In this document: piece by piece, positions 632 to 52,564 of the stretch
How positions within the stretch are numbered: position 1 is the first letter of the stretch
How the letters are laid out: every line of letters starts with the position of its first letter
Virus record (IMG/VR): IMGVR_UViG_3300046167_000533
Span: 1-55,298 of that record
Source: a virus
Lineage: Duplodnaviria > Caudoviricetes
Length of the DNA stretch: 55,298 nucleotides
Strand: one strand, 5' to 3'
Position numbers and translations under genes: made by a program
The notes under the pieces: model-generated
What the model was told of the DNA's origin: nothing
Database searches by the model: none
The model's input: the letters and a program-made list of their open reading frames with translations, nothing else

Positions 632-2839
632 ATGTCAGCTTTAAGCAGTTTCTTTTCAGGCGCAAATGCCAACCAGAACTACCGCAACGACATCCGTGCA
701 GCAACGTATCAGCAGAAGCAAATTGATCTCCTTGAGGGCGAGCAAGCTCTACAAGATGACCGGCGTGCTCTGAATCAGACGCAAGCGATTGCCAGTCAGC
801 TGGGGGTTTTGTCGACCGATGGATTATCTATTGATACTAAGAAACTGACTGAACGTCTGGCGGCACAGCGAGAAAGCGGTCAAGTAGATCAGTCGCTCGA
901 AAACCTGCTGACTACGGTAGGTAACACTGATTTTTCCGTTAAGACCAACCCAGGTTTTAAGTTCCGGCAATTCAATGTAGGCCCTGATGGCTCGTTTTCT
1001 ATGATCGGTTCGTACGACGGTCAAGAAGGTAACCCTAGAGCCGCTACTGTTAATGGCGGTACAGATGATAGTGAAGATGTCTTGTTTGCTTCACCTGAAC
1101 AGGTCGCTAACGCTGCAAGTAATGGGTTCAACCAGCTTTTGCAGAAAAAAGGCAACGCGGATTACTACTTGCAAGTTAGGAACAAGGTTAGGTTAGGCAA
1201 CTCAGCTATAGATATGGCAGAAAATGAGACTCGCGCTTCGGTCGGCCAGTTAAGAAACCAAGTAGACCTTTTCTTGGGGCAGTACAAAGGCACTGATCAA
1301 GAACAAGCGGCGCAACAAGCCGCAAGAAAGCTAACGAGTGCGCTTGCAAGCGCTGAAGGTTGGGAAGCGCAGTTCGATGTGTTGCAAGATTTTGGCGAGC
1401 AGCTTGGTGTGGACGGAATAACTGAAATCGCAAACGCTGCAAAAGCTGATACTACTGGCAGTACTACTGGCAATACAGCGGCTCCTACTGCCACTGCTCC
1501 AGCTGGTCAAGCTGTTCCAGCTGCTGCACCTGCGCCCGCACCTGCCGCACCTGCGCAAGTAACCGATGCTGATATAGAAGCTTATAAAGAGGCTAATCCG
1601 CTCGAAGCGAACTTACCCGATAGGGTTATAGCGAGCAGGCTTCGTGGGCAGCAGCGTAAAGAAATGAGTCTTGCGGAGCGTGCAGGCGCAAGAAACAACG
1701 CAGGCGCAGAAGACAACAGCGCACGCATTGCAGAGATCGAACAGATCCTCGCCCGCCCTCTTCCCAAGAACGCTCGTTCGGGAGTGGCAAGACGTCGGCA
1801 AGCGCTGCAAAAAGAACTTGAAGGGCTACAAGGTAAATCGTCTGCACCCGCTGCGACTGAGAGCGCGCCAGCCAAAGACGAGGCCGCCGCCCCACCTGTG
1901 GTCGAGCTAGGGCAACAGGTGGCAGCCGCTCAAGCTAAAGGAGATACGAACGCACAAAACGTTAAACCGACACGCGAGCAGGTAGCGGCCCTTAAGGAAG
2001 CTTTGAACGACAAAGGAATAATGTCGTTTAGAGAAATGCCTAGAGCTTCGCTGGCGGAGCAGCGCGCTTTGTTAGCGGTCCTCTCTTCAGATGAGAGCGC
2101 CGACCCAGCACAGCGCGAGAGGTATCAGATCGCCCTGAACAACATGATCGAAACTGGCACGATGTCGTATGACAGAAAGTCTTTAGACGCGGCAGTTTTG
2201 GATGAGCGAAAGCAAACTTCAACCGAGTTTCAGGCCCAAACAGCGCGCGCAAACACTATACGTTTACGGGATGAATTCGTTGGAGGAGCGGTCCACAAGA
2301 GTTCCACTTTCATAAACAAACAAGGTGAGAACATTGCGAAGCTGTTTGTTGATGGCGACGGTAATGCCCTCGATCCCTCTGTTAAGCAGTATCAAACAGC
2401 CGCGCTCGGTCAGAACGGCTCCATTGCAAATCTTTTTCGACGCTTACAAGGCGCTATAACCCGTCAAAGATCTGGGGCTGGCGGACGCGATGTTGCAGGT
2501 GCCGAAAGCCGACAGCTTACTGATGCGCTCCTTGCCCAGATCAGCTTTGGTATGCAGTTTATAAGTCAAGACGACGACTTAGAGATTAGTTTTTTAGCTA
2601 CCGATTCAGGTGCAGCGCTGACGGCAAGCGACAGCCGCTTGTCTCGAATAGCAAGGGACGGTGCGCAAGATGCGCAAGGTCGCAGCGGCATAATTATCTT
2701 GAAGCCTGGCACTAACACGCAGGACGGCGACGCATTCAGCGCGAAACAGGTACAGGAGTTTTTTGGCGGCAACACTGAGCTGTCTCGATTCTTCTTTACT
2801 AAGCTTGATGAGATCGAGCGACAGAGGGCCGGTAACTAA
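632..2839 (+). CDS. Putative internal virion / ejection protein
   Basis: 735 aa, Ala/Gln-rich with PA-rich linkers. Position is typical of podovirus ejection proteins. Confidence 0.6.
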   Translation: MSALSSFFSGANANQNYRNDIRAATYQQKQIDLLEGEQALQDDRRALNQTQAIASQLGVLSTDGLSIDTKKLTERLAAQRESGQVDQSLENLLTTVGNTDFSVKTNPGFKFRQFNVGPDGSFSMIGSYDGQEGNPRAATVNGGTDDSEDVLFASPEQVANAASNGFNQLLQKKGNADYYLQVRNKVRLGNSAIDMAENETRASVGQLRNQVDLFLGQYKGTDQEQAAQQAARKLTSALASAEGWEAQFDVLQDFGEQLGVDGITEIANAAKADTTGSTTGNTAAPTATAPAGQAVPAAAPAPAPAAPAQVTDADIEAYKEANPLEANLPDRVIASRLRGQQRKEMSLAERAGARNNAGAEDNSARIAEIEQILARPLPKNARSGVARRRQALQKELEGLQGKSSAPAATESAPAKDEAAAPPVVELGQQVAAAQAKGDTNAQNVKPTREQVAALKEALNDKGIMSFREMPRASLAEQRALLAVLSSDESADPAQRERYQIALNNMIETGTMSYDRKSLDAAVLDERKQTSTEFQAQTARANTIRLRDEFVGGAVHKSSTFINKQGENIAKLFVDGDGNALDPSVKQYQTAALGQNGSIANLFRRLQGAITRQRSGAGGRDVAGAESRQLTDALLAQISFGMQFISQDDDLEISFLATDSGAALTASDSRLSRIARDGAQDAQGRSGIIILKPGTNTQDGDAFSAKQVQEFFGGNTELSRFFFTKLDEIERQRAGN

Positions 2840-5800
2840 TGGCTGATCCTGTAGAGTCGCTTTTATCCTTCGACTACTCAGAGCCGGATCGCGACTATGA
2901 CGTAACTGCGCGCACGGGAACCACGCCCGATGGCCTAGGGGAAACGTTTGCCCGAGGTTTTGACGTCGGTCTTGAAAACATCCAGACGGACAACGACTAC
3001 TTTAAAGGTCTGTTCAATACTGTAATTGGGGACGAAGAAGCAGCGGCTGAAAACATTGCAGCTGCTCGTGCCCGCGAACAACGCACCTCCACATCATTTG
3101 GGGAACTACAGGACTTCGAAGGGTTTGTTGAGAACCCGACTGTCGGTGGCTTCTTTACTCAGATATCTAAGAACCTCGGTCAAATTACGCCTTATGTAGG
3201 CGCGACGCTCAGCAGCGGCCTCGCTGGAGCCGCAGTCTCGGGCCTTACCAAACTCGGCGTCAGCGCGGGAAGCCGTCACGTAACAAAGCGCCTAGTGCGA
3301 GATGCTTTTGAGAAGAAGCTCAAGGGCGAAGCAACTCCCGAAGAGGAGCGCGTGCTTGCTGTTTCCTATCGGCTCGCACAACGTAATAACGCCGCCGACA
3401 AGATCACACTTAAAGGCGGCGCTGCCGCTGGCATGTACGGCCAAGAGTACAGCAGCATGGCTGGCTCAAATTTCGGCGAGAACCTCGACTTTCTAGATGA
3501 TGAAGAAGCAGCACTAAGGTCGGCCGGTTTGGCCGTGCCGCAGGCGTTTATTGGCCTCAAGGGCGAGCAGCTTCTGACAAGAATGCTGATGAAAGATCTC
3601 GGCGATCTCGCAGCAAAGCGGTCAACGAGAGACGGCTCCTCTTTTGCAAAGCTCGCAAAGAATTTAGCGAGGGGCGGCGCTACCGAGGGTGTGGCTGAAA
3701 CTTTGCAAGAAGGTATTAGTGTAGCTAATCGGTTCGACATTGACCCTGAATACACTACGCAAGACGCTGCCCTTCGAATGGGCGAATCTGCTTTTGCTGG
3801 TTTCTTCGGCGGACTTGGTATCTCAGGAGCCGGAAGCGCCACAGTAGGTACGTTTCGCGGCGCTCAGAACGTCATGGGTAAAGCCAAGGACTACATCGAG
3901 CAGGCCCGACAGCAGCAGGTCGACGCAAAAATTGATGGTGAGCAGTATGGCGTGGACTCAATGGGGTTCACGACACCGGAACCACAAAGCTCAGTAAACG
4001 CGCAAGTTAGAGCGGCCGTAGACCCCACTACCGCGCGGCACTCCATTTGGGTCGAAGGGCCAAACCCTGAATACGATGCCTCCGAGACGGAAACAAAAGA
4101 AGTCGAGATCGAGGCCGGCGTTGATGGAGACGGGAACGTCACCTATCAAAAGTTCTATACGCGTTTTATCCCTGGTCGCGGCACGATCATCTCTAAGAAC
4201 TTTGACATAGTCGAAGAAGTTGCTGAGTCACAAGCGAACGAGGAATCGCTTGCTGCGGCACTACAATACAGCGACGTTAAGCCAATAGACGGTGACATTG
4301 TTGTAGAAGCACTAGACCGCGAGGGCAACGTGGTTTGGCAGCAAGGTACAAACGAAGACGGATTGGCTGGTGCATTTAGCGCAGCTGGTTCTCAGGTTCC
4401 TGCTGGCGGATCAGTAAGACGCCGCTCGGTTCAAGAAGCGCTCGAAGAACGGCAAACGCTGTTTAACCAAGAACAAGGTCCGCAAGTAAGAAACATCGAT
4501 GCAGAAAGCTTCGAAGATGGCTTCTCAGATATCGATAACGAGCTAAAGGTCGACCAAGAGCTTGGTTTTGAAATTGACGAATTTGGCATCGGCAGTACTG
4601 AGCTTGGCGATGCGAAAGAAATAAACATTGGTAACGAGGAAACTTATAAACCTCGCTCCGAAGCTAATAGAGTTTTTGAGTCCACGGATGAGGCGCGTAA
4701 TGCGTTTGCGGAGGCCTTCGCAGACGTAGATTTATCCGACTTAGGGAAGGACGAGTTTACGGGGGTCTCGTTCGCAGAAGGCAGCAAGTTTGCACTAATG
4801 TCTGATGCTTTCTTGCGGCAAGCCGCGAAAGCAAAGCGCGAAAACCCAGGCACAGACATCTTCGTCATTGAGAACGAGGACGGTAGTCACTCGCTCATGC
4901 AGACGGTCAGCCCTGAGGCAGAGTTATTTGGGTTTGACTCCCGCACTGACACTCTCCTTGACCCTGCAGTCGAAGCAGAGATAGACGCTGAGGCCGCGCG
5001 CGCTGAAGCGCTTGAAGCTGAACTAGATGCAGAAGAAGCTGTAAACCAGATCAAAGACACGAACGAGCTACGCCCTGGGCTCGACTTATTCGACCAGCAG
5101 CCTAAAGAAGCCCCGCCCGCCGGCCCTGTTGAGCCGGATCCTTTGCAGCGCGGCGAAGACGCCCCACGGGTTATCGGCGGAGTAGCGACAGCAGCGCAGT
5201 TTATTCGCAACGCAATTAAAAAAGCGAAAGAAAGCCGGTTTGCCCGCCAGCGCCGAACTAAGAAAGGCTGGGTAAACAAGAAGCCAGAAGAACTTGTTAC
5301 CGTAGATGGAGTCGCTGTAAACCTTGTCGATCTAGTTAAAGATGGACAGCGTCTTTTTTCAATCGAACAGCGCGGCGAGTTCACCCAAGGCGGTCGAGTA
5401 ACAGCGATGCGCAACGGCCTGTTTCAGGTAATTGGTTCGCTGATTGCTGAAGGCAAAGTGGTTAAGATTGGCGGATACGACATTCGCTCCAAGCTCCTTA
5501 AAGACCTGCAAGACATATCGACCCAGATCGCTCAAGAAGAGCAAGCAGTGGCGGATGCAGCGTTGGAGTGGGACTTAGATCCTGACAGCCCCGATTTAAA
5601 TGCGCGTCTTGCCGAGGTTCAACAGTACCTATCTGAAGTTGAAGGCAGAGTCGCTCAAGGGCGTCGTGCTGACAGAGAGGCCCGAAGAAACTCGCCACTG
5701 GATCGATTAAAAATTCAGCGCGCGAAATGGGCACGCGACTACGCCGAGTATCAAAAGCTTACGGCGCAAGGCGTGAAAGGCCTGACGGAACCTGTGAAGC

Positions 5801-8800
5801 CGCCGCTTCTTGCGCTAATGGACGTGCAGGCTGGGATGGAAGACGGACGGTCAATCACCGTCGGCAAGCTCCTAAATAAAACCCCTGAAAACACGCCCTC
5901 TAAAGATGCGATCTACACGCTGACAAACGAAGACGGTTTTGTTGTTTTCGAAGGTAACAAGCAGCAGGTGCAAGAGGAGATTGAAAGCTCCAACAGGCCT
6001 TACATCATCAGCAAGAACGGCAAGCGCCTAACTGACGAAGAGTTTGCACAAGAGCGCAACGTGGGCTTCAACGACCGTCCGACTAATTTCCGGCCCGACG
6101 AGCCTGTGGCGGACACGCCTAGTGAAGACTTGAGGCCGATCGGCTTCTCAGAGCAAACCACGGACGCTGACGCTGATTACGCTTTTGACCCTGAAGCGGA
6201 AAACTTAGGTGACCTCAAGCCCCTTGGCGTAAAGGCTGGTACGATCGCTGCGCGGGTTGTTGATATCGCACGCCGAACGTTGAACTTGGATAAGCCTACG
6301 TCAGTCTTGTCAGTCCGCGAGTTGCTTCGTATGGACAACTTTGAAGACGCATTCAGCGACCCTAGGGTAGCTGCATACGTTAAGGAAGTCGCAGAGCAGC
6401 TTATAGCGGACCCACAAGGCGGCGGTCGATACATCGGATTTGGCGATGCGCACATTATTCTTATTGATGAAAGCGCGGGCAAGAACGACCTGGACACGGC
6501 GCTGATTGTTGCTCACGAACTCGGGCATGCCCTGTTCAAAGAGCAGCTCTCTTCAACTCTAAAGAACCCTGCGTTATATAACCGCCTGTTTGACGAGTTC
6601 CAAAAAGCGCGCGACGCCGACGACGCGCCTACTGCGTACCGAGGGAAGCACGGCTTCGAAGAGTGGTACGCAGATCAGACTGCTAACTGGGCGATTGCTG
6701 AATACGCCAAAGACAGAAAGAAAGGCTTGGTAGGCGCGCACTTCCAGAAAGTTGCTCGTAAGCTAAAGCAGTTTTACAAAGCCTTCTCTGCTGACATGAA
6801 GAAACGTTTTGGCCGTGACGCTGCTTCGCCAGAATTCCGTGGCTATATGGATGAAGTTATACGCCGTCGCTCCGAAGGCAGCACGGCATCTGGTGCGCAA
6901 ACAGCATCGATGCAAGAGAAAGTTATTGTCCGCAAGATGGCAGAAGTTGTTGAGAAACAGCAGCCAGGCTTCGTCGGCGCGGTTAACAAGAAAGTACAAC
7001 AGCTGATTAGAAGCGATGGCTTCACACCTGTTTATAACTTTATCTTCACCGCCGACTCACGACTCCGAAAAATCGCCGGCAATAAGGTGGCTGACCTGTT
7101 CTACGGCAGAGCGCAACAGGCCAACGGTAAAGGACGGAATAAGCTTGGCTTTATCAAGACCTCGATGCTTGAAGGCAACCGCTGGTTTAACAAGTTGGAG
7201 GACGCAATCGATGGCGACCTAGATTCGCCGGAAGTACAAGCTGACATTGATATAGCGTTTTCAGACACGCCCACGCGAGACCTTACGAATAAAAACGCGA
7301 TCGCGGTACGCAAGTGGTTTGACCAGTTCTACGATGAGTACATAGAGCCGTCTCAGGCTGACATCGGCAGGCAGACTGATTATGCGCCTGTCGTGCTAAA
7401 GCTCTCCGAAATTGAGCAAAACCCAGACGTACTTATTAAGCTGATCCTCGAATCTGATCCAGAAGCAAAGCCTGCGGACATCAAGTTTGCCGTGCAGAAA
7501 CTGGTCGATTATCAGCAAGCCGTTATGGACGGTGCCCCGATAGACATCAAGGGGACTAATCCTGCGCAATCAGCTGAAGCGGCAATTAAGCTGACGAAGG
7601 CTGTAGGACGAGACAAGTTGAAGGCTGCCGGTCTTCTCGAAGACACAGACGTCGCGTTGATGACCTACATCACGAAGACTGTGAAGCGCGTCGAGTGGAA
7701 GCGTAATACTGAAGACGAATTCGGTAACAGCATCTACGAAGAAGAACTGCGCAAACTGTCAGGCAAAGATCAGGCAGAAGTACAGAAAATTGTACATAAG
7801 TATCTCGGCTACCAAGAGTCTCCGCTTAGCCCTATGTGGCGGACGATCAACAGCTGGGGTTCTGTATTGCAGATCTTCGCTATTCTTCCACTGGCGGTAT
7901 TGGGGTCTATCCCAGAATTGGCTGGGCCTGTTATAGCGAGCAAAGAATTCAGTTCGGTTACTGAAGGTATGAAGGAGATTGTCAGAAGTATCCGCAACAG
8001 AGATGAAGCGCGAGCCTTAGCTAGGGATCTCGGAGTTGTAACCAGCCAATCAGTCGCGAACATCATGATGTCGCAGGCAGAACTAGATTTTATGAGCGAA
8101 GGTGCGCGCAAGCTGACAGACGGGTTTTTTCGAGTGACTCTACTAGACACATACACCAAGTTTACGCGCGAGTTTGCTTCGAATATGGGCGTACGGTTTA
8201 TTATTAAGCACGCTGATATCGACGGGAACGCGAACGCCTTTTCCAAGAAGTACCTCGATGAGCTAGGCGTGTCCGCTGCCGATGTGCAGGCATGGTCTAA
8301 GTCAGATCAGAACTTCAACACTCCAGAGGGTCAGCGCGTCAGAATGGCGCTTCAACGTTTTGTCGAGTCATCAACGCTACGACCGAACGCTGCTGAACGA
8401 CCTGTATGGGCGTCTGACCCGCATTGGGCGCTGTTCTGGCAGTTAAAAGGTTTCTTCTACTCGTACGGCAAAGTAATGCTTGCAGGCGCACGACGCGAAG
8501 CAGCTTCACGTTTGAATGGCGCTACCGCAACCGACGCAAGCAAGTACGCGGCATTGACCGGCGCAGCAGGCGTATTTGCCTTGATGGGTATAGCTACTAT
8601 GCCACTGGCTATGGTGGGCATGGAGCTTCGTGAATACGCCAAGTTTGGTCTTGCTTACGCCATTCCAGGCATAGACCACGACGCGAAAGATTACTTCCGC
8701 ACGGACAACCTCAGTTGGCCTGAATACCTAGGCGCTGCATTTGACCGCTCTTTTGCCGCCGGCCCCATAACGATTGCTCAACAAGCGATGCAGGCAGCTG

Positions 8801-8931
8801 ATTGGGGGCGCGGCGTTACAGGCGCTGCCGCAGTTGTCGCCGGCCCAACTGCTGAAACCGTGCAGCGTATCTTTACCGATGGGTTTTCCAGCACGTTTGA
8901 AAATCGAATGTTACCAACAGGACTTCTGTAA
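2839..8931 (+). CDS. Giant internal virion protein with zincin-like metallopeptidase motif
   Basis: 2030 aa. Contains VAHELGHALF (HExxH, nt 6511-6528) and downstream FEEWYAD. Translationally coupled (TAATG) at both ends. Confidence 0.7.
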   Translation: MADPVESLLSFDYSEPDRDYDVTARTGTTPDGLGETFARGFDVGLENIQTDNDYFKGLFNTVIGDEEAAAENIAAARAREQRTSTSFGELQDFEGFVENPTVGGFFTQISKNLGQITPYVGATLSSGLAGAAVSGLTKLGVSAGSRHVTKRLVRDAFEKKLKGEATPEEERVLAVSYRLAQRNNAADKITLKGGAAAGMYGQEYSSMAGSNFGENLDFLDDEEAALRSAGLAVPQAFIGLKGEQLLTRMLMKDLGDLAAKRSTRDGSSFAKLAKNLARGGATEGVAETLQEGISVANRFDIDPEYTTQDAALRMGESAFAGFFGGLGISGAGSATVGTFRGAQNVMGKAKDYIEQARQQQVDAKIDGEQYGVDSMGFTTPEPQSSVNAQVRAAVDPTTARHSIWVEGPNPEYDASETETKEVEIEAGVDGDGNVTYQKFYTRFIPGRGTIISKNFDIVEEVAESQANEESLAAALQYSDVKPIDGDIVVEALDREGNVVWQQGTNEDGLAGAFSAAGSQVPAGGSVRRRSVQEALEERQTLFNQEQGPQVRNIDAESFEDGFSDIDNELKVDQELGFEIDEFGIGSTELGDAKEINIGNEETYKPRSEANRVFESTDEARNAFAEAFADVDLSDLGKDEFTGVSFAEGSKFALMSDAFLRQAAKAKRENPGTDIFVIENEDGSHSLMQTVSPEAELFGFDSRTDTLLDPAVEAEIDAEAARAEALEAELDAEEAVNQIKDTNELRPGLDLFDQQPKEAPPAGPVEPDPLQRGEDAPRVIGGVATAAQFIRNAIKKAKESRFARQRRTKKGWVNKKPEELVTVDGVAVNLVDLVKDGQRLFSIEQRGEFTQGGRVTAMRNGLFQVIGSLIAEGKVVKIGGYDIRSKLLKDLQDISTQIAQEEQAVADAALEWDLDPDSPDLNARLAEVQQYLSEVEGRVAQGRRADREARRNSPLDRLKIQRAKWARDYAEYQKLTAQGVKGLTEPVKPPLLALMDVQAGMEDGRSITVGKLLNKTPENTPSKDAIYTLTNEDGFVVFEGNKQQVQEEIESSNRPYIISKNGKRLTDEEFAQERNVGFNDRPTNFRPDEPVADTPSEDLRPIGFSEQTTDADADYAFDPEAENLGDLKPLGVKAGTIAARVVDIARRTLNLDKPTSVLSVRELLRMDNFEDAFSDPRVAAYVKEVAEQLIADPQGGGRYIGFGDAHIILIDESAGKNDLDTALIVAHELGHALFKEQLSSTLKNPALYNRLFDEFQKARDADDAPTAYRGKHGFEEWYADQTANWAIAEYAKDRKKGLVGAHFQKVARKLKQFYKAFSADMKKRFGRDAASPEFRGYMDEVIRRRSEGSTASGAQTASMQEKVIVRKMAEVVEKQQPGFVGAVNKKVQQLIRSDGFTPVYNFIFTADSRLRKIAGNKVADLFYGRAQQANGKGRNKLGFIKTSMLEGNRWFNKLEDAIDGDLDSPEVQADIDIAFSDTPTRDLTNKNAIAVRKWFDQFYDEYIEPSQADIGRQTDYAPVVLKLSEIEQNPDVLIKLILESDPEAKPADIKFAVQKLVDYQQAVMDGAPIDIKGTNPAQSAEAAIKLTKAVGRDKLKAAGLLEDTDVALMTYITKTVKRVEWKRNTEDEFGNSIYEEELRKLSGKDQAEVQKIVHKYLGYQESPLSPMWRTINSWGSVLQIFAILPLAVLGSIPELAGPVIASKEFSSVTEGMKEIVRSIRNRDEARALARDLGVVTSQSVANIMMSQAELDFMSEGARKLTDGFFRVTLLDTYTKFTREFASNMGVRFIIKHADIDGNANAFSKKYLDELGVSAADVQAWSKSDQNFNTPEGQRVRMALQRFVESSTLRPNAAERPVWASDPHWALFWQLKGFFYSYGKVMLAGARREAASRLNGATATDASKYAALTGAAGVFALMGIATMPLAMVGMELREYAKFGLAYAIPGIDHDAKDYFRTDNLSWPEYLGAAFDRSFAAGPITIAQQAMQAADWGRGVTGAAAVVAGPTAETVQRIFTDGFSSTFENRMLPTGLL

Positions 8932-33431: not shown

Positions 33432-33626
33432 TTAAGTAGGATTTGCGTCTTTTTCAAATACTTCCTGTCGGTCGATCCTGACCGATTCGTCTGCTTCAAA
33501 TGTCAGACGAACTTGATTCCTGTCAACTTTGGAGATTTTAACTCTCGCGAGGACGCCGTCATCGCTGTGGATGACTACTGTTTCTTGGATTTTTCTCGTT
33601 AATACCAAACGTGGCATATGGCTCAC
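33432..33626 (-). CDS. csrA: CsrA/RsmA-family RNA-binding protein
   Basis: LVLTRKIQETVVI...VKISKVDRNQVRLTFEADESVRIDRQEV matches the CsrA pattern. Confidence 0.82.
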   Translation of the reverse strand: MSHMPRLVLTRKIQETVVIHSDDGVLARVKISKVDRNQVRLTFEADESVRIDRQEVFEKDANPT

Positions 33627-44283: not shown

Positions 44284-44289
44284 GCCGGA

Positions 44290-44556
44290 ATGAGCGAAGT
44301 AGAAGTCATCACTATTGAAGGTCTTGACGCCGCAATCATCGGGTCAACCATTCGCGATGGCCGTGAAGTCCTCGCATATGACATCGACAAAGCTGTCGAA
44401 ATACTTGTGTCCCACGGGTACTCCGAGGAGTACGCGGAAGAATGGATCACGGAGATGTGTTCGAACGAGTTCGACGGATCACCTGCATTTGTGTATGTAA
44501 ATGAAGAACCAGAGTTTCATGGAACAGGCACCCCAATCGGAGTCACAGTCCACTGA
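44290..44556 (+). CDS. Hypothetical protein
   Basis: GLDAAIIG...VLAYDIDKAVEIL. Confidence 0.65.
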   Translation: MSEVEVITIEGLDAAIIGSTIRDGREVLAYDIDKAVEILVSHGYSEEYAEEWITEMCSNEFDGSPAFVYVNEEPEFHGTGTPIGVTVH

Positions 44557-49865: not shown

Positions 49866-50156
49866 ATGGCGAGTGAAAGAGACCCACGATTAGCCCGAGC
49901 AGGTGTCTCGGGCTTCAATAAACCTAAGCGGACGCCTAATCACCCGAAAAAATCGCACATTGTTGTGGCTAAAGAGGGAGATAAGATCAAAACCATACGG
50001 TTTGGTGAGCAAGGGGCTAAGACTGCGGGCAAACCCAAGGCTGGGGAAGGCGACAAGATGCGTAAGAAGCGCGCCAGCTTCAAAGCACGCCACGCTAAGA
50101 ACATATCCAAGGGCAAAATGAGCGCGGCCTATTGGGCCAATCGCGTGAAGTGGTGA
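49866..50156 (+). CDS. Basic small protein
   Basis: K/R-rich; IRFGEQG...SFKARH...SAAYWA..VKW. Confidence 0.75.
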   Translation: MASERDPRLARAGVSGFNKPKRTPNHPKKSHIVVAKEGDKIKTIRFGEQGAKTAGKPKAGEGDKMRKKRASFKARHAKNISKGKMSAAYWANRVKW

Positions 50157-50160
50157 TCTG

Positions 50161-50586
50161 ATGGCTAGAACAGACGAACCTAAATGGAAACGCATTGTCG
50201 CGTCGGTTAAGGCGGGCTCAGCTGGCGGAAAACCTGGCCAGTGGTCAGCCCGTAAGGCGCAAATCGCGACGCAGCGCTACAAAAAGTCAGGTGGCGGTTA
50301 TAAGGGCCCCAAAACAAAGGCTCAGAAGTCGCTGTCTAAGTGGACTAAAGAGGAATGGGGGACAAAGTCCGGTAAAAACTCAACTCAAGGAAGTAAAGCG
50401 ACAGGTGAAAGGTATCTCCCGAAGAAGGCTCGAAAAGCTTTATCAGACAAGGAGTACGCTGCCACTTCCCGAAAGAAGCGGGAAGACACAAAGAAAGGCA
50501 AGCAGTTCTCAAAGCAGCCAAAAAAGATAGCGAAGAAGACAGCGCGGGTTCGAAAAGCGAGCCACCGCCCTAGCCGACGCAGTTGA
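50161..50586 (+). CDS. Basic protein (DUF5872-like)
   Basis: GGKPGQWSARKAQ...YKKSGGGY...SLSKWTKEEW...RYLP. Confidence 0.75.
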   Translation: MARTDEPKWKRIVASVKAGSAGGKPGQWSARKAQIATQRYKKSGGGYKGPKTKAQKSLSKWTKEEWGTKSGKNSTQGSKATGERYLPKKARKALSDKEYAATSRKKREDTKKGKQFSKQPKKIAKKTARVRKASHRPSRRS

Positions 50587-50594
50587 TTTAGGTG

Positions 50595-50623
50595 TTGCAT
50601 ACGTATATTAGTATCGCTAATAT
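50595..50623 (+). promoter_or_regulatory. Operator/promoter for the capsid transcript (TTGCAT-N17-TAATAT)
   Basis: ATATTAGTATCGCTAATAT at 50605-50623. Confidence 0.8.
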
Positions 50624-50634
50624 TCTATGTATAT

Positions 50635-50800
50635 TCGTCCATCAGAGCGATATCTGATCGGCCCGTAGCCGTAAAAAACGTAACCATCGCCTGCACAAGG
50701 CGTTAAACCTGCCGAGGTCGCTCTCGTTAAAACGCGCTAGTTCGTCGTCCCACGACACGGGAACACGGATTAGCCGCTCCAGTAAGTCGGCTAAACGAGC
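50635..50800 (+). ncRNA. Candidate structured RNA: six tandem H-type pseudoknots in the capsid leader
   Basis: Six consecutive stem-loops, each with a loop-complementary segment just 3' of the stem (pairings listed in findings). Confidence 0.65.
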
Positions 50801-50805
50801 AGGCT

Positions 50806-50824
50806 TTATTAGCTGCGCTATTAA
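50806..50824. promoter_or_regulatory. Operator copy TTATTAGCTGCGCTATTAA
   Basis: Degenerate copy just before the capsid RBS. Confidence 0.55.
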
Positions 50825-50848
50825 TACGACAATTTTATGGAGGCCATC

Positions 50849-51994
50849 ATGGCTTTAACGAACTTCGGTACGCTTACGGGCGACCAACTGCAGATGTGGT
50901 CGCGTGAATTCTGGAAAGTAGCACGCAACCAATCTTTCATTAACCAGTTCGCTGGTACTGGCTCTAACGCGATGGTTCAGCGAATCACTGAACTGACCAA
51001 GAACCAGAAAGGCACGAAAGCAAACATTACGTTGCTTGCTGATATGACTGGTGACGGTATCACTGGTGATAACACGCTAGAAGGGAACGAAGAAGCCCTA
51101 CGCGCGTATGACATCACCATTGAGCTAGATCAGCTACGTTTTGCTAACCGCATCGCTGGCCGTATGACGGACCAGAAGACAGTGGTTAACTTCCGTGAGC
51201 AGTCTCGCGACGCCCTTGCGTATGCAATGGCTGACCGTTGTGACCAGTTGGCATTCTTGACTCTGTCAGGTGTTGCTTACACTCACAAAAACAATGGTGC
51301 TCTGCGTACTACCTCTTCTTCTGCTGGCCACGAGTTGGTAGATCTGGAGTTTGCGTCTGACGTTTCTGCACCTACTGGTGATCGCCATCGTCGAATAAGC
51401 GGAACCTCGATAGCGGCTGGCGACACTACCGCTGTTACAGCTTCTGACAAGTTGGCCTACCGCCACGTTGTAGAACTGAAAGCCTACGCTAAGGATAACT
51501 ACATCCGAGGTATTCGCGGTGCTGGTAACCAAGAAACCTTCCATATGTTTGTTACTCCGCAGCAAATGGCTGACCTCAAACTTGATAGCGATTTCTTGGC
51601 CAACGTGCGTAATGCCGGTGTCCGAGGAACTGGCAACAGCTTGTTTGCGGGTTCTTCAAGCCTGATGGTAGACGGCGTGATGATCCACGAGTTCCGTCAT
51701 GTGTTTAACACTACTGGCGCAACTTCTGGTGCTTCCGCTAACGCTGGTGCAGCTGGCTACAAGTGGGGTGCTGACGCTGACGTAGACGGTGCTCGCGCAT
51801 TGTTCTGCGGTGCGCAAGCGCTCGCACTGGCTGATATCGGTCTGCCTGAGATGGTTGAAGACACCTTCGACTATGGCAACCAGTCAGGCATCTCTGTAGG
51901 CAAGATCTTCGGTCTCCGTAAGCCTAAGTACAACTCAGACATTTCTGGTAGTGCTCAGGACTTCGGTGTTATCGCCCTCGATACTGCCCAGTAA
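50849..51994 (+). CDS. Major capsid protein (DUF4043 / N4-gp56-like)
   Basis: GDNTLEGNEEAL...IELDQLR...ALFCGAQALA...DYGN...DFGVI motifs; RBS GGAGG; followed by a terminator. Confidence 0.93.
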   Translation: MALTNFGTLTGDQLQMWSREFWKVARNQSFINQFAGTGSNAMVQRITELTKNQKGTKANITLLADMTGDGITGDNTLEGNEEALRAYDITIELDQLRFANRIAGRMTDQKTVVNFREQSRDALAYAMADRCDQLAFLTLSGVAYTHKNNGALRTTSSSAGHELVDLEFASDVSAPTGDRHRRISGTSIAAGDTTAVTASDKLAYRHVVELKAYAKDNYIRGIRGAGNQETFHMFVTPQQMADLKLDSDFLANVRNAGVRGTGNSLFAGSSSLMVDGVMIHEFRHVFNTTGATSGASANAGAAGYKWGADADVDGARALFCGAQALALADIGLPEMVEDTFDYGNQSGISVGKIFGLRKPKYNSDISGSAQDFGVIALDTAQ

Positions 51995-52001
51995 GACTGT
52001 C

Positions 52002-52028
52002 GCCCCCTCTTCGGAGGGGGCTTTTTTT
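52002..52028 (+). terminator. Intrinsic terminator after the capsid gene
   Basis: GCCCCCTC-TTCG-GAGGGGGC-TTTTTTT. Confidence 0.95.
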
Positions 52029-52039
52029 GGAGTGTACGG

Positions 52040-52564
52040 ATGAGAAAAAGACCCTACGCGAAGCCGAAGAGCTCACCTACAACCAGCCGTAGCGCCCGAT
52101 TGAAAGCGACGGTGGCTCGTATGAAAACGAAGAGACAGGCGGCTAGAGCTGAAGAAGCGAAGAAAGAAGCTGAGAGGCTAAACACTGTATCTAGGAAGAG
52201 AAAGGCCCCTGCGACAACTGGGCAAAAGAAAAAGGCCGGCTCCTCTACCAAGAAGGTCGCGGCCAAGAAGCCGGTTCCACCTAAAAATCCAAGAACAGGT
52301 CGTAGAGGTGGTTCAGTAGATTCAAAAACCAATATGGACTTCGACGCGGCACCTCGAAACACGAATAGAAACCCCCGTGCTCGTGCTCTTAGTATGCAAC
52401 GCGACAAGACCGGTGGCGTAAAGACCAAAGCAGGCGAGTACAAAGTATTCAAGAAGAAGTCACAGGCTGCAGGCAGCTTTCGCTCAGCTTTCGCTACGGC
52501 GAAGAAAGCAGGCAAGAAGACATTCACTTGGAACGGCAAGAAGTACACCACCCAAACTAAGTAG
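52040..52564 (+). CDS. Very basic protein
   Basis: 174 aa, K/R-rich; ends SFRSAFATAKKAGKKTFTWNGKKYTT. Confidence 0.75.
   Translation: MRKRPYAKPKSSPTTSRSARLKATVARMKTKRQAARAEEAKKEAERLNTVSRKRKAPATTGQKKKAGSSTKKVAAKKPVPPKNPRTGRRGGSVDSKTNMDFDAAPRNTNRNPRARALSMQRDKTGGVKTKAGEYKVFKKKSQAAGSFRSAFATAKKAGKKTFTWNGKKYTTQTK

What the first reader, a model, noticed from the sequence alone, without database searches (positions are those of the whole stretch)
50635..50800. Six back-to-back H-type pseudoknots in the 5' leader of the major capsid gene
Seen: the ~220-nt gap between a predicted promoter (-10 ends at 50623) and the capsid ATG (50849) is tiled by six units of stem1, loop, and a downstream loop-complement. 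Class I has an A-rich linker: CGGC-cCGTa-GCCG-taaaaa-ACG (50659-50680), CGCCT-GCAca-AGGCG-ttaaacc-TGC (50688-50712), CGAG-gtCGCt-CTCG-ttaaaac-GCG (50713-50736) and AGCCG-CTCcagtaagt-CGGCT-aaac-GAG (50772-50799). Class II: TCGT-cc-ATCAGA-GCGA-ta-TCTGAT (50635-50658) and TCGT-cg-TCCC-ACGA-cac-GGGA (50742-50762). The units differ in sequence but keep their pairings, which amounts to internal covariation. Known: A-rich loop 3 is typical of H-type pseudoknots, T4 gene 32 autoregulates through a leader pseudoknot, and tobamovirus UTRs carry tandem pseudoknots. Inference: an RNA element I cannot assign to a known family. It could be a capsid/scaffold autoregulatory operator, a translation enhancer or nuclease block, or a processed structural RNA. 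Several second stems are only 3 bp, so the repetition is the main support.
Basis: partly seen in the sequence, partly recalled or inferred. Interest (0 to 1): 0.88.

Follow-up and report, generated by a model that had tools for sequence, protein, structure and literature searches.

The report
Pseudoknot-chain leader RNA before capsid gene
The roughly 220 bases between a promoter and the major capsid gene of this marine phage encode a conserved, tightly folded RNA leader made of a chain of small pseudoknots and hairpins, a new RNA family whose job is probably to control the stability or translation of the capsid message.

Summary
The element is real. Model R1 hit 100 of 100 and 78 of 79 related viral loci. 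Many pairs change on both sides and stay paired (97.8% of cells paired against 89.7% shuffled, 0/500).

Of the six loop-to-flank second stems:
- Supported by compensatory changes: unit 1 (PK1) and unit 3 (PK3). Unit 5 (PK5) is supported only in the wider family.
- Mixed: unit 4.
- Not supported: units 2 and 6.

A seventh variable hairpin (P7), an AU-rich spacer and a strong Shine-Dalgarno site follow. G-U pairs place the structure on the + strand RNA. There is no Rfam match.

More distant capsid clades carry the same building blocks. By eye, so do cultured phages KPP25, phiA008 and AP1.

The phage encodes a CsrA homologue, and the leader has ACGGAU plus a GGA-containing Shine-Dalgarno site. 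But six complete and four partial pseudoknot-bearing relatives carry no detectable CsrA gene, so CsrA cannot explain the pseudoknots.

My best reading is a cis-acting stability/translation element, at moderate confidence.

The scan had noted the same motif in three other genomes, as first-reader notes only.

The parts
50595..50623 (+). Promoter-like TTGCAT (50595-50600), 17-nt spacer and TAATAT (50618-50623). It overlaps the 19-bp palindrome ATATTAG-N5-CTAATAT (50605-50623).
   Evidence: TTGNNN-N16-18-TANNNT is present in 104 of 104 distinct extended leaders. 99 have a 17-nt spacer and 88 have TAATAT. The palindrome occurs 11 times in the window against 0.06 expected. No transcription start has been mapped.
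50636..50658 (+). Unit 1. Hairpin P1 is 50641-45 with 50654-58 (a sixth pair, 50646/50653, forms in the window only). Pseudoknot PK1 pairs the 5' CGU (50636-38) with GCG in the P1 loop (50647-49).
   Evidence: All 5 P1 pairs change on both sides. The PK1 core is never unpaired in 89 distinct rows (UA77/UG8/CG4). Compensated variants are UCGC/GCGA, CGCG/CGCG and CUUG/CAAG.
50659..50680 (+). Unit 2. Hairpin P2 is 50659-62 with 50668-71, with loop CCGUA. An A-rich linker (50672-77) and ACG (50678-80) follow.
   Evidence: P2 pair types are GC54/UA23/CG12 and CG66/GC21. The proposed loop-tail third pair is UA67/other19. Only CG:CG is invariant.
50688..50712 (+). Unit 3. Hairpin P3 is 50688-92 with 50698-702. 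Pseudoknot PK3 pairs the loop GCA (50693-95) with UGC (50710-12) across the A-rich linker 50703-09.
   Evidence: Pair 50693-50712 is GC59/AU20/GU10 with 0 unpaired. It ranks 13th of all column pairs in an unbiased scan. In L275 the third pair changes from A-U to C-G.
50713..50736 (+). Unit 4. Hairpin P4 is 50713-17 with 50722-26. The possible pseudoknot PK4 pairs loop CGC (50719-21) with GCG (50734-36).
   Evidence: Three P4 pairs change on both sides. The PK4 third pair is CG70/UA5/UG2/other12, which is mixed.
50742..50762 (+). Unit 5, the core module. UCGU (50742-45), a 2-nt gap, then hairpin P5 (50748-51 with 50759-62) with loop ACGACAC. PK5 pairs UCGU with ACGA (50752-55).
   Evidence: All 4 P5 pairs change on both sides. 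The module was found in 70 of 73 parsed regions. In the wider family the upstream base and loop base are U-A 47, C-G 24, U-G 1 and non-pairs 6. There are at least 7 changes on the capsid tree, and 3.9 of 4 independent pairs go the same way.
50765..50770 (+). Conserved single-stranded ACGGAU between P5 and P6, a possible CsrA site.
   Evidence: 92 of 99 distinct leaders have CGGA and 7 have CGGG. Its likeness to a high-affinity RsmE/CsrA site is recalled, not tested.
50772..50792 (+). Hairpin P6, AGCCG/CGGCU, with an 11-nt loop that starts with CUCC.
   Evidence: Invariant in close relatives. Compensated to GUCU/AGAC in L271/L280. RNAalifold predicts it independently.
50799..50816 (+). Hairpin P7, variable in sequence. 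The window copy has one extra G (50803) relative to near-identical relatives.
   Evidence: Nearly all of the 80 distinct tails fold into a hairpin at this position with different sequences. Clear exceptions are L224 and L266. No U-tract lies directly after it.
50817..50851 (+). AU-rich unstructured spacer, Shine-Dalgarno GGAGG (50839-43) and the capsid start ATG (50849-51).
   Evidence: Sequence. GGA lies within 17 nt of the ATG in 98 of 99 leaders. Folds leave this stretch mostly open.
50849..51994 (+). Major capsid protein gene (PF13252).
   Evidence: Pfam E 1.8e-49. The leader accompanies capsid genes that are 70-100% identical.
52002..52021 (+). Terminator-like hairpin with a T-run after the capsid gene.
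   Evidence: Found. A crude test finds a similar site in 52 of 92 distinct relatives.
33432..33626 (-). Phage CsrA-family gene (64 aa), a possible trans factor for the GGA sites.
   Evidence: PF02599 at 47.7 bits against a cut-off of 27. Homologues occur in 5 of 5 long leader-bearing contigs.

Best explanation
This is the 5' untranslated leader of a self-contained capsid transcription unit: promoter, leader, capsid gene, terminator.

The RNA folds from its first few bases into a chain of small pseudoknots and hairpins. In order these are PK1/P1, P2, PK3/P3, P4, PK5/P5, then P6 and P7. An open AU-rich spacer and a strong ribosome-binding site follow.

Inferred mechanism: the chain acts in cis. 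PK1 ties the 5' end into the first hairpin loop, and the compact chain leaves almost no single strand. That would protect the long leader from 5'-end-dependent decay and from endonuclease or Rho entry. The ribosome-binding site stays free, so the capsid message is long-lived and heavily translated.

The ACGGAU site and the GGA in the Shine-Dalgarno site may add control by the phage's own CsrA protein.

Shown here: the structure, its strand, its conservation and its linkage to the capsid gene. Inferred: every functional step.
For: Structure:
- Covariation of P1-P6 and of PK1, PK3 and PK5.
- RNAalifold independently predicts P1-P6, with 14 of 33 pairs compensated.
- An unbiased column-pair scan ranks the same pairs at the top.

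Strand: frequent G-U pairs, for example UG38/UA29/CG19 in P1, fit only + strand RNA.

Linkage to the capsid gene:
- There is one copy in the window.
- Hits lie upstream of the capsid gene in 100 of 100 and 78 of 79 loci.
- The gene upstream of the promoter differs between contigs.

5' end: the promoter motif is in 104 of 104 leaders, and the first CG of PK1 lies mostly 7-12 nt after the -10 box. PK1 would therefore use the first bases of the transcript.

Open ribosome-binding site: an AU-rich spacer and GGAGG follow P7.

Own unit: a terminator-like site follows the gene.

RNA-library contigs from four studies cover the leader. Two of them join it to the capsid coding region: X3 50668-50925 and X7 50813-50963.
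Against: - No transcription start, half-life or translation data exist. Contigs cannot show RNA ends and may contain carried-over DNA, and one contig runs upstream through a relative's promoter.
- A single 5' hairpin is enough for protection in known cases (recalled). The invariant loops (ACGAUA twice, CCGUA, UCGCA) and linkers argue for a specific partner or tertiary fold that this explanation does not need.
- In the window the predicted 5' tail before PK1 is about 5-7 nt, longer than in most relatives.
- Two of the six proposed pseudoknots lack support.
Confidence: 0.42

Rival explanations
1. The leader is a translational operator for a capsid-module protein. Free capsid or scaffold protein, or another conserved neighbour, binds the repeated modules (two ACGAUA-loop pseudoknots and three hairpin-plus-CGU(A/U)AA units) and tunes capsid synthesis to assembly.
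For: - Loops and linkers are more conserved than a pure shield would need.
- The modules are repeated.
- The core pseudoknot module follows the capsid gene across clades, including ones with no CsrA gene.
- The promoter-leader-capsid block moves together while upstream genes vary.
- Precedents are recalled, not tested: T4 gene 32, the MS2 coat operator and P22 scaffold autoregulation.
Against: No binding data exist. No RNA-binding domain was found in the flanking proteins (Pfam found nothing for four of them). The ribosome-binding site is not visibly occluded by the structure.
Confidence: 0.2
2. The leader is mainly a target of the phage-encoded CsrA. A dimer bridges ACGGAU (50765-70) and the GGA in the Shine-Dalgarno site to repress translation, or to stabilise the capsid mRNA.
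For: - The window encodes a CsrA homologue.
- Homologues are in 5 of 5 long leader-bearing contigs and in one further 68%-complete contig.
- 92 of 99 leaders have CGGA and 98 of 99 have GGA at the Shine-Dalgarno site.
- In Bcep22-type phages with the same capsid family, csrA lies 140-1050 nt upstream of the capsid gene.
- The Bcep22 leader has a hairpin with GGAUG in its loop.
- Burkholderia hosts of such phages are reported to lack chromosomal csrA (PMC7366521, passages read).
Against: - 7 of 99 leaders have CGGG instead of CGGA.
- ACGGAU lies in a linker, not in a hairpin loop.
- KPP25, phiA008 and AP1 have no detectable CsrA gene (0 of 3). Ten relatives' contigs, six of them 100% complete, also have none (0 of 10). 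Their leaders still have the core pseudoknot module.
- CsrA would explain only about 10 of roughly 190 structured bases.
Confidence: 0.2
3. The leader is a ligand-sensing riboswitch-like element built from small pseudoknot aptamers with A-rich tails.
For: Units 2-4 have the outline of small H-type aptamers: a G+C-rich stem, an A-rich 7-nt linker and a short second stem. The loops contain invariant bases.
Against: - No Rfam riboswitch hit, even at E up to 10.
- No expression platform. P7 has no adjoining U-tract and the Shine-Dalgarno site is open.
- No alternative pairing is conserved.
- A metabolite switch before a capsid gene has no obvious logic.
Confidence: 0.05
4. The structured part is released as a stable non-coding RNA that acts in trans, for example as a decoy for a host nuclease, a defence system or CsrA.
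For: The domain is compact at about 190 nt. It ends in hairpin P7 followed by an AU-rich stretch that could be an RNase E site. It is highly abundant in marine viral contigs.
Against: RNA-library contigs join the leader to the coding region. It has only one to four GGA motifs, too few for a sponge. It always lies in cis to the capsid gene.
Confidence: 0.08

Closest known systems
T4 gene 32 mRNA leader (5' pseudoknot plus an unstructured AU-rich stretch up to the ribosome-binding site); recalled, and mentioned in passages of PMC10690425
   Same: A phage 5' leader with an H-type pseudoknot upstream of an AU-rich open region and the ribosome-binding site of a highly expressed gene.
   Different: It has one pseudoknot, not a chain. 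[quoted passage not shown] Here the gene is a capsid protein and no binder is known. There is no sequence likeness.
Tandem pseudoknot arrays (tmRNA PK1-PK4; tobamovirus upstream pseudoknot domain); recalled
   Same: Several small H-type pseudoknots placed head to tail.
   Different: Those lie in a trans-translation RNA or in a eukaryotic viral 3' UTR. ARAGORN finds no tmRNA here. This array sits at the 5' end of a bacterial-type mRNA.
5' UTR stabilisers such as the ompA leader; recalled
   Same: Structure at the extreme 5' end of a long leader before a strongly translated gene.
   Different: Those are simple hairpins. Here there are seven helices with invariant loops and at least three pseudoknots.
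CsrA/RsmA-controlled leaders (glgC, flhDC, hag, hcnA); recalled
   Same: One GGA motif upstream and one in the Shine-Dalgarno site. A CsrA protein is encoded by the phage.
   Different: The upstream GGA is not in a hairpin loop and is GGG in 7 of 99 leaders. Most of the element has no GGA. The pseudoknot module also occurs in relatives with no detectable CsrA gene.
Guanidine-II (mini-ykkC) and preQ1-I riboswitches; recalled
   Same: ACGA-type loops whose CG dinucleotide pairs outside the hairpin. Small pseudoknots with A-rich tails.
   Different: Loops here are 6-9 nt rather than tetraloops. No Rfam hit at E up to 10. No expression platform.
Candidate structured RNAs catalogued from IMG/VR (PMC10690425; passages read, supplements closed)
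   Same: Comparative prediction of cis-regulatory RNAs upstream of phage structural genes from the same kind of data.
   Different: The text names five candidates upstream of the capsid family PHA00201, not PF13252. Whether this motif is among the 10,006 candidates could not be checked.

Membership tests
H-type pseudoknot (structural class) | A hairpin stem supported by covariation | tested here: met
   P1, P2, P4 and P5 have many double changes. P3 has 7 UA and P6 has 2 compensated rows.
H-type pseudoknot (structural class) | Loop bases pair with a flanking single strand, shown by compensatory change | tested here: met
Met for PK1, PK3 and PK5. Mixed for PK4.
Any Rfam 15 family | A covariance-model match | tested here: not met
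   0 matches at gathering scores in the whole window. 0 matches at E up to 10 in 50400-51000.
preQ1-I riboswitch | A small pseudoknot with an A-rich tail and the family's conserved loop bases | tested here: not met
   The outline is similar in units 2-4, but there is no Rfam hit at E up to 10. The family's features are recalled.
Guanidine-II (mini-ykkC) | Two hairpins with ACGR tetraloops | tested here: not met
   Loops are ACGAUA(C)-type and 6-9 nt long. No Rfam hit.
CsrA-regulated leader | Two or more GGA motifs, one overlapping the Shine-Dalgarno site | tested here: met
   94 of 99 leaders have at least 2 GGA motifs. 98 of 99 have GGA within 17 nt of the ATG.
CsrA-regulated leader | The upstream GGA is presented in a hairpin loop and is conserved | tested here: inconclusive
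   ACGGAU lies in the P5-P6 linker. It is CGGG in 7 of 99 leaders.
CsrA-regulated leader | CsrA binds and changes expression | not testable with these tools
   Only gene presence and synteny are available.
Intrinsic terminator / attenuator | A G+C-rich hairpin directly followed by a U-tract | tested here: not met
   P7 is followed by AUAAAUUA-type sequence. The terminator scan lists none between 50600 and 50850.
tRNA / tmRNA | ARAGORN detection | tested here: not met
   0 genes in the window.

The most novel reading that the evidence does not exclude
The pseudoknot chain is an old RNA operator linked to the capsid gene and shared, in modular form, by a wide group of podoviruses with PF13252 capsids.

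Its core is a CG(Y)-N2-stem-(R)CGA-loop pseudoknot just upstream of the ribosome-binding site. Either a capsid-assembly protein reads it to match capsid synthesis to assembly, or it forms a nuclease-proof 5' end, a bacterial counterpart of viral exonuclease-resistant RNAs.

In some lineages a phage CsrA was then recruited to the same leader.
Probability: 0.25. Interest if true: 0.85.

Novelty: new variant of a known kind. Interest (0 to 1): 0.72.

Why it matters
Capsid protein is the most heavily made product of a phage infection, yet RNA-level control of capsid genes in tailed phages is little described.

Here a large, well-supported RNA structure sits before the capsid gene in hundreds of environmental viral contigs. 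It has no Rfam family. Its building blocks recur before the capsid genes of distant relatives, including cultured Pseudomonas, Aeromonas and Acidovorax phages, so it can be tested at the bench.

It also gives a concrete candidate target for the unexplained CsrA genes of phages. In Bcep22-type phages these lie next to the same capsid gene family and have been treated as morons of unknown role (PMC9144972, passages read).

Tried and rejected
- **Rfam:** nothing found.
- **DNA search of the leader against named phages:** no match.
- **tblastn of the window's CsrA against named phages:** no match.
- **Model R1 on KPP25, phiA008 and AP1:** no hit in the leaders, with filters off. On 80 loci of other capsid clades there were only four weak hits with E up to 0.04, the best 17 bits. 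The wider family was therefore read by motif parsing.
- **14-mer scan of bacterial genomes:** 120 rows returned and none carries the full motif.
- **RNA runs:** contigs only. They show no transcription start. The gap in cover at 50559-50632 proves nothing.
- **CsrA in contigs with the GGG variant:** 0 of 5 plus 0 of 1. These fragments also lack the DNA polymerase region, so the result is uninformative.
- **P6 loop CUCC pairing with the Shine-Dalgarno GGAG:** the fifth pair shows no covariation, with 46 pairing and 30 not. CUCC is absent in L266 and L271.
- **P2 loop pairing with UACGG, and U50666 with A50769:** no consistent helix.
- **Alternative helix UAGCCG (P2 3' strand) with CGGCUA (P6 3' strand):** it appears in the single-sequence fold, but P2 covaries away from it in 35 of 89 rows.
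- **5' CG with the CG of ACGG:** RNAalifold proposes this pairing. It is invariant, and the L275 change fits PK1 instead.
- I mis-set PK1 by one column, which gave 7.5% paired.
- **Independent-pairs test for PK5:** only 4 pairs on supported branches, p 0.125.
- **Literature:** searches found no description of this leader.
- **44284-44500:** the long gap after another operator holds an 88-aa frame. I did not follow it.

Full report
**Setting**

The window is a whole viral record of 55,298 bases, estimated 94% complete. The capsid gene runs from 50849 to 51994 and belongs to PF13252. It follows a P22-like portal gene, a scaffold-like gene and two small basic proteins. The gap 50587-50848 has no credible + strand reading frame. 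A terminator-like hairpin follows the capsid gene at 52002-52021. No Rfam family matches the window at gathering scores or the region at E up to 10. No tRNA or tmRNA was found.

**The observation**

Single-sequence folding is only modestly better than shuffles:
- z -2.25 for 50625-50860 on the + strand
- z -1.28 on the - strand
- z -2.48 for the core 50631-50795

The case therefore rests on relatives.

**Relatives**

A capsid-protein search of viral contigs found 415 related stretches, and the best 80 were kept. Of the 71 with 330 nt upstream, all align through the promoter and leader, while the DNA upstream of the promoter falls into several unrelated groups. A 14-mer from P6 found 117 more stretches. 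74 of them carry the full motif next to a capsid start, and 43 look like chance matches. Capsid identity among carriers runs from 70 to 100%.

A covariance model of the six hairpins (R1) gave these results:
- One hit in the window, at 50630-50794 with 179 bits.
- 78 of 79 further loci hit. The 79th has no upstream DNA.
- 100 of 100 chosen sources hit.

**Hairpins**

On 79 distinct rows of A1, the full structure is 97.8% paired against 89.7% in shuffles (0 of 500 reach it). 18 pairs change on both sides, and slid controls give 27-41%. RNAalifold predicts P1-P6 without guidance, with 14 of 33 pairs compensated. My own G-test scan with average-product correction over all column pairs ranks P1, P5 and P2 pairs first. 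P6 is invariant among close relatives but becomes GUCU/AGAC in L271/L280. G-U pairs are common, for example UG38/UA29/CG19 at one P1 pair. The structure is therefore on the + strand RNA, not in DNA or the antisense strand.

A seventh hairpin, P7, is present in nearly all of the 80 distinct tails, with varied sequence. It is followed by 25-35 AU-rich bases and the Shine-Dalgarno site. No U-tract adjoins it.

**Pseudoknots**

*PK1* pairs the 5' CGU with the P1 loop. The three core pairs are never unpaired in 89 distinct rows, and the third pair is UA77/UG8/CG4. Divergent members replace the helix with UCGC/GCGA, CGCG/CGCG or CUUG/CAAG.

*PK3* has these pair types:
- GC59/AU20/GU10
- CG74/UG8/other7
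- AU75/CG1/UA1/other12

Its first pair ranks 13th overall in the unbiased scan.

*PK5* is invariant in this clade, so I looked further out. A profile search gave 80 loci of other capsid clades, 56-66% identical to KPP25. R1 barely sees their leaders, but they contain the same blocks. An objective parse of 101 loci found the module in 78. The base after the upstream CG and the base before the loop CG are U-A in 47, C-G in 24, U-G in 1 and non-pairs in 6. On a capsid tree the upstream base changes at least 7 times. In 4 independent pairs on supported branches the loop base follows in 3.9 and opposes in 0, which is too few for significance (p 0.125).

*PK4* is mixed (CG70/UA5/UG2/other12). *PK2* keeps only an invariant CG:CG (third pair UA67/other19).

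**Promoter and 5' end**

TTGNNN-N16-18-TANNNT precedes all 104 distinct extended leaders. 99 have a 17-nt spacer and 88 have TAATAT. The first CG of PK1 lies mostly 7, 8, 11 or 12 nt after the -10 box. PK1 would therefore engage the first bases of the transcript.

The -10 box is half of a 19-bp palindrome found 11 times in the window against 0.06 expected.

**RNA evidence**

Contigs of four metatranscriptome studies cover the leader:
- X3 50668-50925
- X4 50674-50825
- X6 50674-50841
- X7 50813-50963

Those of X3 and X7 join it to the capsid coding region. They cannot show ends or exclude DNA. One X6 contig runs upstream through a relative's promoter.

**CsrA**

The window encodes a CsrA-family protein at 33432-33626. 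Homologues lie in 5 of 5 long leader-bearing contigs and in one further 68%-complete contig. 92 of 99 leaders have CGGA in the P5-P6 linker, and 98 of 99 have GGA at the Shine-Dalgarno site.

In Bcep22-type phages, which share the capsid family, csrA lies just upstream of the capsid gene. The same 31 Ralstonia, 10 Burkholderia, 5 Erwinia and 2 Serratia records appear in both the capsid and the CsrA searches. The Bcep22 leader has a hairpin with GGAUG in its loop. Published work calls this gene a moron of unknown role (PMC9144972, passages read). It also notes phage csrA in hosts that lack a chromosomal copy (PMC7366521, passages read).

Against a general role:
- 7 of 99 leaders have CGGG.
- KPP25, phiA008 and AP1 have no detectable CsrA gene.
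- Ten contigs of the other clades, six of them complete, have none either.
- Those clades still have the core module, and by eye so do the three cultured phages.

**Reading**

The structure is established. Its function is inferred. I favour a cis-acting stability and translation element whose 5' end is locked by PK1. A protein operator and CsrA control are live rivals that are not mutually exclusive. The invariant loops are the main unexplained feature.

**Novelty**

I found no description in five literature searches. A 2023 catalogue of 10,006 candidate viral RNAs may contain this motif, but its supplements were closed (PMC10690425). This scan had flagged the same motif in three other genomes, as first-reader notes only.

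Noticed in passing
window 9667, 16970, 25014, 28545, 30863, 33410, 36178, 41563, 43766, 44265, 50605: A 19-bp palindrome, ATATTAG-N5-CTAATAT, occurs 11 times against 0.06 expected. It overlaps the -10 box of the capsid promoter and is probably a shared operator-promoter module.
   Followed up: partly
window 33432-33626 (-): A phage-encoded CsrA-family protein (PF02599, 47.7 bits) lies between the DNA polymerase gene and the next gene. It is conserved in related long contigs.
   Followed up: partly
L488 272-562 (Bcep22) and records: In Bcep22-type phages csrA lies 140-1050 nt upstream of the capsid gene on the same strand. The Bcep22 and Ralstonia Gerry leaders both start near AUCGGACC and carry GGA motifs; the second sits in a hairpin loop in Bcep22 and, by my reading only, in Gerry.
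   Followed up: partly
window 49866-50156, 50161-50586, 52040-52564 (+): Three small, very basic lysine- and arginine-rich proteins flank the capsid gene. Pfam finds no family for any of them.
   Followed up: no
window 50803 and 50806-50824: The window's P7 has one extra G compared with near-identical relatives, and RNA-library contigs lack it too. The P7 region of this sub-clade resembles a degenerate copy of the operator palindrome.
   Followed up: no
L002-L081, upstream of the promoter: The gene upstream of the capsid promoter differs between otherwise close relatives, so the promoter-leader-capsid block behaves as one recombination module.
   Followed up: partly
window 2839-8931 (+): A 2030-aa reading frame with no Pfam match.
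   Followed up: no
L446, L447, L449, L452, L453, L464 upstream of the capsid start: Another leader type in a distant capsid clade. It has hairpins followed by UAAAA-type linkers, and a GGAG/CUCC hairpin whose loop CGAC can pair with GUCG or GCG downstream.
   Followed up: partly
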